Assembly: GCA_030265395.1 (NCBI GenBank)
Contig: JARFYF010000002.1
Span: 51,963,238 to 52,027,237 of the forward strand
DNA from: Rhina ancylostomus
Lineage: Eukaryota
Reading direction: 5' to 3'
Length of the DNA stretch: 64,000 nucleotides
The position numbers were made by a program. How positions within the stretch are numbered: position 1 is the stretch's first letter; each line of letters begins with the position of its first letter. Below are positions 54,801 through 57,800 of the stretch, piece after piece.

Positions 54801-57800
54801 AAATACTTTGTGTATTTTATGGCTCAAAATAGATCACCTCACAATTCCTTTGAAATCTAGCTGGCACAGTTTCATTATTCCCTTAATTTGTCTTCTGTAT
54901 CTAACAATTCTCCTGATTGTCTCAACGGTTTTCTTTGAATTCTAGGAGCTTTAATTTTACTCAATAGTTTCTTAAAAGGCAGCATACTGGATGCCTTCTG
55001 GAAGTCCATATAAAGTGCATCCATTGACATTTGCCTACTTCCACATTGGATAAAATCTGTTCTTTCCAAATTAATGTTTACTTACTCTATTTGTTCAAGT
55101 ATCTAATTGGCGATATCTGTAAACTAAATATCAATTGCATTCATGAAAATATCATAACTATTGTTTTCCCCCAAACAGATATTAAGGTATAGAGGTTATA
55201 TGTATTCTGATTGTATCACATAAAATACTGTCTATTCATCAATGTTATGTAAAAAATATCTGTCAGTCGTCCATGAATTATATCTTATTGCAGTAGTGTT
55301 CAGTCTGCTCCCATTGAAGGATGTGGTAGTGTATGTTCTATCTCAGAAGCAGTTAAATTAAGTGTCCACCATTTATAATACCTGGATCAAACTCTCAATC
55401 AGTTTAGTTACTGAACCAGAGACGGGTGCACTTCAAAAACATAGAGCTCAAATGGACCATGTAAAAGGAAGATTGGTCACTCTGTGGCCCAAAGAATTAT
55501 CTACTGCATCAAGATGAATGCTGTCAGAATGCTTCGAAAAGCTCTGACTCATGAAATCTGGAGTCAAGAGTGAGATTTTCATCCATCACACTTTTTGTAC
55601 AATATTTTAAACATGAAGTGTCACAATTTCATTTCAATCTTTCACCTCTCTACACAGTCCGAAAGACGAGAGCAGTGGTTTGAAGCAGGAGCATCGTGGC
55701 CTCCAACTGCGTAAAGGAAACCATCGCACGTTGCCACCCCCACACCTCCTCTTCTCTTGGACATGGGTGTACACATACTCCACTTATTGGTGTGTGGATC
55801 GTAGCACTCTATAGATTTGAGGCAAGCACTTCCATCTCGACCCCCGACAGCGTACAACCTGTTGACAAAAGATGCTCAGTGAATCGATGTTATGGCATCA
55901 ACAATGCTGAAACTAAAATCACAGAACGTGGAGTCTTACGACACAATTGCTTCTGTCAGCTCTTTGAAAGAATTATACTATTAGCCTCGCTCTGAATCTT
56001 CTACCCCTTAACTTAAACCTACAGCCTCTGGCCATTGATGTTTCTGCTAAGGGGGGAAGCATTTCTCACTATGTACCATGTCTATGCCTCTCATAATTTT
56101 GTATACTTCAATAGAACCCCCTCCTCCTTCTCCACTCCAAAGATAACAAATTAAACCTCTCCTCATTGCTGCAATGTTATCTTCAATGCCTTCCAGTTCA
56201 TCTCCAAAATTACTATTGAATCAGCTCGGAATACATGATATTGGAGCAGGAGTAGACCATAAAGCCTTTCAGTTTTCTCCATCGTTCAATAAGAAGGTGG
56301 CTGATATTTGCTTTGACTTCAATTCCATTTTGCTGCCAGATCCCTACAACCCTCTGATCCAAACACCTACACATCTAAGTCCTGAACATAACAGTTCCCT
56401 GGTTAGATAGAAAATTTGAAAGATTCACAACCTTCTTCAGAAGAAGTTCCTCCTTGTCTCTGTCTGAAATGGCTATTCCTTTGTCGTGAGATTGTACCCC
56501 TTAGTTCTGAATTTCTCCAACAAAGACCTCACCATCCATCTTGTTAAACCCCTTCAGATTCGTGCTTTAGCAAGATCACCCAAATTCCAGCGGTTATCAG
56601 ACCAATTAACTCAATCTTTGACCATAAAACAATTCCTCCATCCCAGGAATGAATCCCAGGAATCACTCTAGCATCTAATACTGGTGGATTTCAGGAAGTA
56701 ATAATCCATTGCATAATAAAAAATACTCCAAAGGATAGTTTGTCATAATCTTTGTCCTCTGATTACTACACTGCCTACTATTGCGTGTGCTTTACTCTCA
56801 CTGAACACCCTATTAAAGTACCTTCTCCTTTTTAAAGAGAAAATTCAGCTCTGTTTTCTGGAGACGGTGCAGAGAAGATTCACCTGGATGTCACCTGGGA
56901 TGAAGGCATTTCAGTGATGAGGAGAGACTCGAGAGGCTCAGTTTGTTTTCTTTGGAGTGGGGAAGAATGAGGGGGCTCTGTTGAGGTACACAAAATTTAT
57001 GAGGGGCATAGACAGGGTACATAGTGAGAACCTTTTCCCCCTTGGTCAATGACCAGAGGCTATACGTTTAAGGTACGGGACAGAAGATTTAGAGGGGATT
57101 TGGGGAAGAAATTTCTCACCCTGAGGTTGGATGAAATCTGGAACATAGCACCCAAGGTGAAGGCACAACATTTGACAAGTATTTTGATGAACACTTATAG
57201 CACCGTGGCATAGGTTTGGTTTCGAAAAGTATTTGATGGTAGACACTGAGGTGCTGGTCCGAAGGATTTGTTTCAATGCTACATTTCATTTTAATTTGTT
57301 CAAGGGATGTGGGCTATGCAGGTTGAGCCAGCAATTAATTGCTCACCCTGAATTGCTCTTGAGAAGGTGGTGGTGAGCTACCTTCTTGAACCACTGCAGT
57401 CCTTGAAGTGTGGGTGTACCCACAATGTTGATAGGGAAAGAGTTCCAGGATTTTGCACAGTACAGTATGGCACGGTAGTGTCGTGGTTAGTTTTCTGTCT
57501 CAAGTACTTGTCTGTTCTCTTTTGAATGCCATGATTGAATCCACCTCCACTACCAGTGCCTATCAGATCCTAACCATTGGTGCTTACAAAAAATATTCTC
57601 ATGGCATTTCTTTGGCTCCTTACAGGGACAGTAGTGTAGCGGTTAGTGTAACGCTATTACAGCGCCAGCGACCAGGGTTCAATTCTGGCCGCTGTCTGTT
57701 AGGAGTTTGTATGTTCTCCCTGTGTCTGCGTGGGTTTCCTCCGGGTGCTCTGGTTTCCTCCCACATTCCAAAGGCATACAGGTCAGGAAGTTGTTGGCGT

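What the first reader, a model, noticed from the sequence alone, without database searches (positions are those of the whole stretch)
55646..55858. Orphan, intact KLHL1/4-type kelch exon inside the RUNX2/SUPT3H intronic region
Seen: a 213-bp open kelch exon with canonical AG/GT ends exactly where protein similarity starts and stops, and about ten retained CpGs in otherwise CpG-depleted DNA. No sibling kelch exon is visible in 64 kb. Known: KLHL1/4/5 are not neighbours of RUNX2 in human. Inference: it is not a processed retrocopy, because it has intronic flanks. It is either a recent genomic transduction or duplication, part of a huge nested gene, or a mis-scaffolded contig. It lies on the RUNX2 strand, in the presumed P1-to-P2 intron.
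Basis: partly seen in the sequence, partly recalled or inferred. Interest (0 to 1): 0.75.

Follow-up and report, generated by a model that had tools for sequence, protein, structure and literature searches.

The report
Probably misplaced KLHL1 exon beside RUNX2
A perfectly conserved exon of the gene KLHL1 sits alone inside a ray's RUNX2/SUPT3H locus, most likely because a small, repeat-bounded piece of a fragmented draft assembly was put in the wrong place, not because of new biology.

Summary
A 213-nt exon lies on the minus strand at 55646-55858, with an AG acceptor and a GT donor. It encodes 70 residues identical to KLHL1 in 17 of 20 cartilaginous-fish KLHL1 proteins. Elasmobranch KLHL4 is 90-91% identical and KLHL5 83%. 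The setting is also right: three RUNX2 exons lie on the same strand at 18-29 kb, and the SUPT3H ATG exon lies on the other strand at 47.6 kb. No other KLHL exon is in the 64 kb.

KLHL1 does not belong here. In 15 of 15 elasmobranch species, KLHL1 lies on a different chromosome-sized sequence from RUNX2 and/or SUPT3H. RUNX2 and SUPT3H share one sequence in 6 of 6.

No unbroken sequence links the exon to a RUNX2 or SUPT3H exon. Its contig (52334-58010) ends in N runs on both sides. Leaving out 54566-58110 rejoins a retroposon tail, through an exact 42-nt overlap with the first bases after the N run.

Best reading: an assembly chimera or mis-scaffold (about 0.58). Main rival: a real, young duplicative insertion (about 0.30). 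A nested or relocated KLHL1 gene is unlikely. In the inferred RUNX2 P1 frame the exon hits a stop after 15 codons. Reads and the rest of this genome were not available.

The parts
55646..55858 (-). KLHL1 coding exon (213 nt, phase 2/2). It encodes the last two-thirds of one kelch repeat and the start of the next, equal to residues 577-646 of skate KLHL1 (P0004) plus two split codons.
55859..55860 (-). Acceptor AG, preceded by a pyrimidine-rich stretch
55644..55645 (-). Donor GT (exon ..GAGAG | gtgaaa)
54566..58010 (.). Block B, the piece that carries the exon. About 1.5 kb of unique intron-like DNA surrounds the exon (54566-56046). The rest, 56047-58010, is mostly interspersed repeats. B runs from the break in a retroposon tail to an N run.
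54177..54565 (+). 3' part of a retroposon: an ORF end at 54177-54215, then an untranslated tail. It breaks off at 54565 and lacks the terminal segment that other copies carry.
54524..54565 (+). 42-nt stretch X, copy 1: the last bases before block B
58111..58152 (+). 42-nt stretch X, copy 2: 42 of 42 identical to copy 1 and the very first bases after the N run. It is followed by the normal continuation of the retroposon tail.
58011..58110 (.). 100-N run closing block B on the right.
52324..52333 (.). 10-N run. It is the only link between the exon's contig (52334-58010) and the contig holding the SUPT3H exon.
57914..58009 (+). Repeat-family ORF fragment at the right edge of block B, pointing into the N run
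28417..28722 (-). RUNX2 P2 exon, from the ATG (MRIPV..) into the Runt domain. A context marker on the same strand as the kelch exon.
27379..27540 (-). Next RUNX2 exon (limits are those of the tblastn alignment)
18207..18335 (-). Following RUNX2 exon (limits are those of the tblastn alignment)
47577..47690 (+). SUPT3H ATG exon (38 codons, acceptor ..tttttcag, donor gtaaac). The locus-specific marker nearest to the kelch exon, about 8 kb away.

Best explanation
The 213-nt exon is the genuine, selected exon of the KLHL1 gene of this ray. KLHL1 is a BTB-BACK-kelch protein, and the exon encodes part of its kelch propeller.

Its position inside the RUNX2/SUPT3H locus is most likely an assembly artefact. 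Either the 3.4-kb block 54566-58010, or the whole 5.7-kb contig 52334-58010, belongs to the KLHL1 locus on another chromosome. It was joined here through shared interspersed repeats.

There are two possible routes. One is a chimeric contig, formed where two loci share the same retroposon tail. The other is a small repeat-rich contig wrongly slotted between two neighbouring contigs.

Shown: the identity of the exon, its setting, its isolation, the repeat-and-gap boundaries, and that KLHL1 is unlinked to RUNX2 in related species.

Inferred: that the join itself is false. On this reading the exon works where it normally does, spliced between the neighbouring KLHL1 exons, and does nothing at RUNX2.
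For: (1) Identity. The exon is 70 of 70 identical to KLHL1 in 17 of 20 chondrichthyan KLHL1 proteins and 68-69 of 70 in the other 3. Elasmobranch KLHL4 is 90-91% and KLHL5 83%. Sharks and rays share the stretch unchanged, so it is either under strong selection or a very young copy.

(2) KLHL1 is unlinked to this locus elsewhere. I compared the length of the sequence carrying each gene. KLHL1 differs from RUNX2 and/or SUPT3H in 15 of 15 elasmobranch species (13 against RUNX2, 2 against SUPT3H only). The positive control works: RUNX2 and SUPT3H share the same sequence length in 6 of 6 species.

(3) No continuous sequence ties the exon to the locus. Its contig is closed by N runs at 52324-52333 and 58011-58110. 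No RUNX2 or SUPT3H exon was found at 52334-64000, apart from a 19-residue chance-level SUPT3H hit (E 0.38-0.45) at 53746-53802.

(4) The N runs behave like real assembler gaps. At 4 of the 9 runs of exactly 100 N, the end of the left contig overlaps the start of the right one: 32 nt with 1 mismatch, 26 nt with 1 mismatch, 9 nt and 9 nt. Neither gap beside the kelch contig shows this.

(5) The contig that starts at 58111 instead overlaps, 42 of 42, the bases that end at 54565. Only after 58152 does the retroposon tail continue as it does in the copy at 53.5 kb. The 54.5-kb copy breaks off exactly at 54565. Leaving out 54566-58110 therefore restores one uninterrupted retroposon.

(6) Contigs of only 1-13 kb between N runs point to a fragmented draft, where repeat-driven misjoins are common. 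That last point is general knowledge, not a call.
Against: - The sequence runs without an N across 54565/54566, so the assembler had some support for that join.
- The 42-nt identity may simply reflect two young copies of one retroposon family, one of them hidden in the N run. A gap at a collapsed repeat would look the same.
- The repeat ORF at the right edge of block B points into the gap. That orientation is what a retroposon-mediated insertion would give.
- Block B shares repeat families with the rest of the window (86% and 100% matches), so it is the same genome, and a local origin is not excluded.
- If so, points 3-5 above weaken.
- I could see no reads and not the KLHL1 locus of this genome.
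- The species is none of those with annotated proteins that I compared (best 97% for the RUNX2 exon and 92% for the SUPT3H exon). Synteny is therefore inferred from relatives.
Confidence: 0.58

Rival explanations
1. A real, young duplicative insertion. A piece of the KLHL1 gene of at least 3.4 kb (one exon with its intron flanks and the repeats lodged there) was copied into a retroposon in the RUNX2 P1-P2 intron, which is also the first SUPT3H intron.

The copying could have been segmental duplication at the DNA level. It could also have been retroposon machinery copying a read-through transcript that ended in a retroposon tail, leaving a long target-site duplication. The copy would be a non-functional gene fragment.
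For: - A 42-nt exact direct repeat flanks the block, and the interrupted retroposon resumes after it, as after an insertion.
- A repeat ORF fragment sits at the right end of the block, oriented toward that repeat.
- The sequence is unbroken across the left junction.
- With 0 changes in 70 codons, such a copy would have to be young. My rough estimate is under 10-15 million years at slow elasmobranch rates. This is inference, not a call.
Against: - From general knowledge, a 42-nt target-site duplication is unusually long, and transduction of several kb of upstream flank is rare.
- The 3' tail that such an insert must carry is hidden in the N run.
- No target-site duplication was found for the host retroposon either (score 8 against a null 95th percentile of 10), so that test gave no help.
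- The test of whether the edge ORF and the tail belong to one element was inconclusive. Of 33 related ORFs, 0 end like the ORF next to the tail, 5 show the pattern RLLN or RFLN and 3 more a close variant, and 1 carries both motifs about 100 residues apart.
- Near-identical duplicates are usually collapsed in fragmented assemblies.
Confidence: 0.3
2. In this species the whole KLHL1 gene has moved into the RUNX2/SUPT3H region or is nested there. This would be one of its exons, with the others lying outside the window in very long introns.
For: - The exon is intact, with good splice sites and perfect conservation.
- From recall, KLHL1 has very long introns in human, so a single exon in 64 kb would not be odd in itself.
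Against: - KLHL1 is on a different chromosome-sized sequence from RUNX2/SUPT3H in 15 of 15 elasmobranchs, including rays from several orders.
- In three species RUNX2 and SUPT3H carry consecutive protein accession numbers: Rhinoraja ..603/..604, Mobula birostris ..558/..559 and Hemitrygon ..304/..305. This is a weak hint that no other gene model lies between them.
- The RUNX2-SUPT3H interlock is ancient and conserved (passages read in PMC3974841).
- The block is bounded by a broken retroposon and a gap.
Confidence: 0.05
3. The exon has been taken up as an alternative exon of RUNX2, since it has the same strand and intact splice sites. Or it belongs to a fourth, unnamed KLHL1/4/5 paralogue.
For: - It is in the sense orientation within the RUNX2 upstream intron.
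- Alternative RUNX2 exons do exist in this intron: 34417-34503 matches isoform X1 of Heterodontus.
Against: - I infer intron phase 1 for RUNX2 P1 from ..cccgtag|atccc.. and from where the P1 isoforms begin to align. In that frame the exon reads 15 codons and then a stop, so it could only act as a poison exon.
- 0 of the 120 listed RUNX2 relatives carry a Kelch Pfam domain.
- A fourth paralogue from the ancient duplications should differ about as much as KLHL4 (90-91%) or KLHL5 (83%) do. It should not be 100% identical to KLHL1.
Confidence: 0.03

Closest known systems
KLHL1 (kelch-like family member 1; BTB-BACK-kelch protein) of cartilaginous fishes, for example the Rhinoraja longicauda, Leucoraja erinacea and Hemitrygon akajei models
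   Same: 70 of 70 residues are identical. The exon maps to residues 577-646 of the 722-residue skate protein. Its split codons fit the flanking K and R. It matches Pfam Kelch_1.
   Different: Only this one exon is present. There is no BTB, BACK or other kelch exon in 64 kb. It lies between RUNX2 and SUPT3H exons, whereas KLHL1 is on another chromosome-sized sequence in 15 of 15 related species.
KLHL4 and KLHL5, the sister paralogues
   Same: Same kelch architecture and the same alignable stretch.
   Different: Elasmobranch KLHL4 is 90-91% identical and KLHL5 83%, against 100% for KLHL1.
Repeat-mediated assembly chimeras and misplaced small contigs in fragmented draft genomes
   Same: The block is bounded by a shared retroposon tail on one side and an N run on the other. 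The next contig overlaps the sequence before the block, and leaving the block out restores continuity.
   Different: The left junction carries no N. Without reads the false join is inferred, not shown.
Gene-fragment duplicates moved by segmental duplication or retroposon transduction (named from general knowledge)
   Same: One exon with intron flanks, not spliced. A direct repeat sits at the two edges and a retroposon fragment at one end.
   Different: The parent copy, the 3' tail at the insert's end and the true length of the flanking duplication could not be seen. A 42-nt duplication would be unusually long.

Membership tests
KLHL1 orthologue (exon of) | Kelch repeat motif | tested here: met
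   Pfam Kelch_1 E 2.5e-19 with two stretches, the best covering residues 1-33 against profile positions 14-46 of 46. PDB kelch domains of KLHL20, KLHL17, KLHL2, KLHL3 and KEAP1 also match.
KLHL1 orthologue (exon of) | Closer to KLHL1 than to the paralogues KLHL4 and KLHL5 | tested here: met
   100% identical to 17 of 20 chondrichthyan KLHL1 proteins and 97-99% to the other 3. Elasmobranch KLHL4 is 90-91% and KLHL5 83%.
KLHL1 orthologue (exon of) | Exon limits and phase fit the KLHL1 reading frame | tested here: met
   The first base, G, completes K. The last two bases, AG, begin R. Identity stops at the AG and GT sites. The exon map of KLHL1 itself was not available to compare.
KLHL1 gene at this place | The other KLHL1 exons (BTB, BACK, remaining kelch repeats) lie nearby | tested here: not met
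   tblastn of 6 KLHL1/4/5 proteins found no other hit below E 1.8 in 64 kb. Long introns could still hide them outside the window.
KLHL1 gene at this place | KLHL1 is linked to RUNX2/SUPT3H in related genomes | tested here: not met
   The carrier sequences have different lengths in 15 of 15 species. In the control, RUNX2 and SUPT3H share one length in 6 of 6.
Processed (spliced) retrocopy | Similarity runs across exon junctions without introns, and a poly-A tail is present | tested here: not met
   Only one exon's worth of similarity, bounded by the two splice sites. No A-run was seen at either side of the exon.
Retroposon-mediated or segmental duplicate of a gene fragment | A target-site duplication flanks the insert | tested here: inconclusive
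   A 42-nt exact direct repeat lies at 54524-54565 and 58111-58152. It could equally be two copies of one repeat family or a contig overlap. Its upstream extent is hidden by N.
Retroposon-mediated or segmental duplicate of a gene fragment | A parent copy exists at the KLHL1 locus of the same genome, and the insert ends in a retroposon tail | not testable with these tools
   No ray genome or reads were on hand. The insert's right end lies in the N run, which was left unfilled.
Assembly chimera or mis-scaffold | The block is bounded by repeats and gaps, and leaving it out restores continuous sequence | tested here: met
Assembly chimera or mis-scaffold | No reads or pairs span the junctions, and the true locus lacks the piece | not testable with these tools
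   Reads and the rest of the assembly were not available.
RUNX2 alternative exon | Keeps the RUNX2 frame open, or is seen in RUNX2 proteins | tested here: not met
   A stop follows 15 codons in the inferred P1 frame. 0 of 120 listed RUNX2 relatives carry a Kelch domain.

The most novel reading that the evidence does not exclude
The block is really there. A young copy of a KLHL1 exon, with its intron flanks, was inserted into a retroposon in the RUNX2 P1-P2 intron of this ray, possibly by retroposon machinery acting on a read-through transcript and leaving a 42-nt or longer target duplication.

It lies in the RUNX2 sense orientation with intact splice sites, so it could be spliced into P1 (bone-type) RUNX2 transcripts. 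There it would act as a poison exon, with a stop after 15 codons. That would be a lineage-specific modifier of a deeply conserved skeletal regulator in an animal without bone.

The probability given is for the insertion being real. Actual use as a poison exon I put at about 0.03.
Probability: 0.25. Interest if true: 0.4.

Novelty: not a real feature. Interest (0 to 1): 0.15.

Why it matters
If it is an artefact, as I think most likely, it matters only as quality control. The KLHL1 model of this assembly would lack an exon, a false 'gene fragment' would sit in the RUNX2/SUPT3H regulatory landscape, and any synteny or conserved-element analysis across 52-58 kb would be misled.

If the insertion is real, it would be a dated, clean example of an exon-carrying fragment moving between chromosomes in an elasmobranch. 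It would also be a possible splice-competent intruder in RUNX2. That is modest but checkable biology.

Tried and rejected
- **Processed retrocopy:** rejected, because only one exon's worth of similarity is present, bounded by the two splice sites.
- **Fourth paralogue:** rejected on identity.
- **In-frame RUNX2-kelch fusion:** rejected, because of the stop in the inferred frame.
- **P1 exon of RUNX2:** not found in the window. The motif search and a 19-residue scan (best 8 of 19) both failed.
- **Target-site duplication for the host retroposon under A-to-C adjacency:** nothing above chance (score 8 against a null 95th percentile of 10).
- **Whether the repeat ORF at the block's right edge and the retroposon tail after the gap are one element:** inconclusive. 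phmmer over 1.84 billion representatives gave 38 hits. I read the 33 that have a single match to the query; the 5 left out had several matched stretches or none. None ends like the ORF beside the tail. Five show the pattern RLLN or RFLN and 3 more a close variant. One carries both motifs.
- **Pfam on 10 repeat-derived ORFs:** 0 families. My 'LINE' and 'SINE' labels therefore rest on recall and on repeat structure, not on a family match.
- **ARAGORN:** 0 tRNAs. **Rfam at gathering thresholds:** 0 matches.
- **Base composition and CpG of block B against its neighbours:** not discriminating.
- **Literature:**
  - A search for RUNX2 + SUPT3H + KLHL1 found 2 papers. Both are human studies by title and abstract start, and I did not read further.
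  - A search for KLHL1 with elasmobranch, skate or shark listed nothing containing KLHL1 among the 8 shown.
  - In those searches I found no report of a KLHL1 fragment at RUNX2.
- **Spliced models:** I searched each exon on its own (kelch, RUNX2 P2, SUPT3H ATG exon) and left out the step of joining exons.
- **Not used or not available:**
  - The collection genome contigs holds only bacteria and archaea, so I did not use it.
  - No ray genome, reads or RNA-seq were available.
  - The N runs were not filled.
  - Nothing in the window looked human. Its genes are closest to those of rays.
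Full report
**1. What is there**

The exon lies on the minus strand, 55858->55646, and is 213 nt long. An AG sits at 55860-55859 behind a pyrimidine-rich stretch, and a GT at 55645-55644. It reads as 1 base + 70 codons + 2 bases.

The 70 residues match Pfam Kelch_1 at E 2.5e-19. They cover the last 33 positions of one kelch motif and the start of the next. They also match solved kelch propellers such as KLHL20, KLHL17, KLHL2, KLHL3 and KEAP1.

In the large protein collection the best matches are KLHL1 of cartilaginous fishes at 99-100% identity. 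Elasmobranch KLHL4 is 90-91% identical and KLHL5 83%. In a local comparison with 20 chondrichthyan KLHL1 sequences, 17 are identical over all 70 residues. The other three differ at 1-2 positions.

The exon maps to residues 577-646 of the 722-residue skate protein. Its split first and last codons fit the flanking K and R. It has 10 CpGs, observed/expected 0.70, against 0.24 for the window. That is normal for coding exons here.

**2. The setting**

RUNX2 exons lie on the same (minus) strand at 28722-28414, 27540-27379 and 18335-18207. The first of these is the P2 exon, which starts MRIPV. An alternative exon lies at 34503-34417. The P2 exon is 88-97% identical to elasmobranch RUNX2.

The SUPT3H ATG exon is on the plus strand at 47577-47690. 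It matches residues 1-35 of human SPT3 homolog in PDB entry 7ktr at E 2.5e-5. It is 87-92% identical to ray SUPT3H.

The kelch exon therefore lies upstream of RUNX2 P2 in the sense orientation, and inside the intron after the SUPT3H ATG exon in the antisense orientation. The RUNX2/SUPT3H interlock is described for jawed vertebrates, the elephant shark included (passages read in PMC3974841, and PMC4176362). The P1 exon is not in the window.

I searched each exon on its own and left out the step of joining exons into a spliced model. Nothing in the window looked human.

**3. It is alone**

tblastn of six KLHL1/4/5 proteins against the window finds this exon only. Every other hit has E >= 1.8.

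**4. KLHL1 does not belong at RUNX2 in relatives**

The protein tools report the length of the sequence that carries each protein. I used this as a stand-in for chromosome identity. KLHL1 lies on a sequence of different length from RUNX2 in 13 of 13 species:

- Hemitrygon, two Mobula species, Heterodontus, Rhinoraja, Amblyraja and Narcine
- Hypanus, Carcharodon, Scyliorhinus canicula, Stegostoma, Mustelus and Heptranchias

It also differs from SUPT3H in 2 more, Leucoraja and Pristis. As a control, RUNX2 and SUPT3H share the same length in 6 of 6 species. A nested or linked KLHL1 is therefore not the ancestral state.

The window's species is none of these. Its best identities are 97% for the RUNX2 exon and 92% for the SUPT3H exon.

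**5. The edges of the piece**

The window has 14 N runs. At 4 of the 9 runs of exactly 100 N, the contig before the gap overlaps the contig after it end to start: 32 nt with 1 mismatch, 26 nt with 1 mismatch, 9 nt and 9 nt. These are real assembler gaps between abutting contigs.

The kelch exon's contig, 52334-58010, is closed by N runs on both sides, and neither shows such an overlap.

Inside the contig, a retroposon 3' part (ORF end at 54177-54215, then an untranslated tail) breaks off at 54565. The first 42 bases after the right-hand N run, 58111-58152, are identical to 54524-54565. Only there does the tail go on as it does in the copy at 53.5 kb. Leaving out 54566-58110 thus restores one intact retroposon.

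The block holds about 1.5 kb of unique DNA around the exon. The rest is repeats shared with the remainder of the window, so it comes from the same genome.

**6. Weighing the readings**

The edges fit three readings:

- (a) a chimeric contig or misplaced small contig joined through the shared tail;
- (b) a real insertion with a long target duplication;
- (c) two independent copies of one repeat family, the second hidden in the gap.

I tried to separate them in two ways. A search for a target-site duplication of the host retroposon gave nothing above chance. I also asked whether the repeat ORF at the block's right edge (57914-58009) belongs to the same element as the tail. Of the 38 hits I read the 33 with a single match to the query:

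- 0 end like the ORF beside the tail;
- 5 show the pattern RLLN or RFLN, and 3 more a close variant;
- 1 carries both motifs about 100 residues apart.

This is inconclusive.

Three things tip the balance to an artefact, at about 0.58. KLHL1 is unlinked in 15 of 15 relatives. The exon is unchanged in all 70 codons. The assembly is very fragmented. A real young duplicate stays at about 0.30. Relocation or nesting of the gene is about 0.05. Exonisation or a new paralogue is about 0.03.

In the inferred RUNX2 P1 frame the exon meets a stop after 15 codons. None of 120 listed RUNX2 relatives has a Kelch domain.

**7. Limits**

- I had no reads, no RNA-seq and no ray genome.
- The operators note that N runs may be deliberate masks. 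I did not try to fill them.
- The repeat labels 'LINE' and 'SINE' are recalled. Pfam found nothing in 10 repeat ORFs, ARAGORN found no tRNA and Rfam found nothing.
- The chromosomal position of human KLHL1 at 13q21 rests on recall. One search gives only a listing of three papers that hold KLHL1, 13q21 and ATXN8OS. The one abstract start that names 13q21 places ATXN8OS/ATXN8 there, and I did not read further.

Noticed in passing
window 11021-11120, 26091-26190, 37846-37945, 60097-60196: At 4 of the 9 runs of exactly 100 N, the sequence before the gap overlaps the sequence after it end to start (32 nt with 1 mismatch, 9 nt, 26 nt with 1 mismatch, 9 nt). These contigs abut, so the gaps look closable and slightly redundant.
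   Followed up: partly
window 25739-25807 (+) and 30636-30776 (+): Candidate alternative 5' exons of SUPT3H lie on either side of the RUNX2 P2 exon. One is 78% identical to residues 1-23 of Mobula birostris isoform X1 (E 2.7e-5). The other is 44% identical to residues 15-64 of Leucoraja isoform X1 (E 0.003). The two genes would be interlocked even more tightly than one shared intron.
   Followed up: partly
window 34417-34503 (-): An alternative RUNX2 exon upstream of P2, 90% identical to residues 20-48 of Heterodontus francisci RUNX2 isoform X1 (E 6e-12).
   Followed up: no
window about 26000-32000: A CpG island (CpG observed/expected 0.59-0.83 against 0.09-0.38 in the other 2-kb bins) holds the RUNX2 P2 exon and one candidate SUPT3H 5' exon.
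   Followed up: no
window 46191-46311, 47277-47357 and 57657-57777; also 730-1023: Several copies of one interspersed repeat, 86% complementary between arms, give a recurring pseudo-ORF. The 57.6-kb copy starts with a tRNA-like stretch, but ARAGORN calls no tRNA.
   Followed up: partly
window 57914-58009; database proteins: 9 of 33 related database ORFs end within 1-3 residues after the same ..KDP.H motif at which this contig stops. That point looks like a recurrent break, either a subfamily boundary or an assembly end, in this repeat family.
   Followed up: no
window 56052-56161 and 56931-57041: Two fragments of the same repeat lie in inverted orientation about 800 nt apart, just downstream (plus strand) of the kelch exon. 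They are 84-86% complementary over 49-67 nt and could form a hairpin in a transcript.
   Followed up: no
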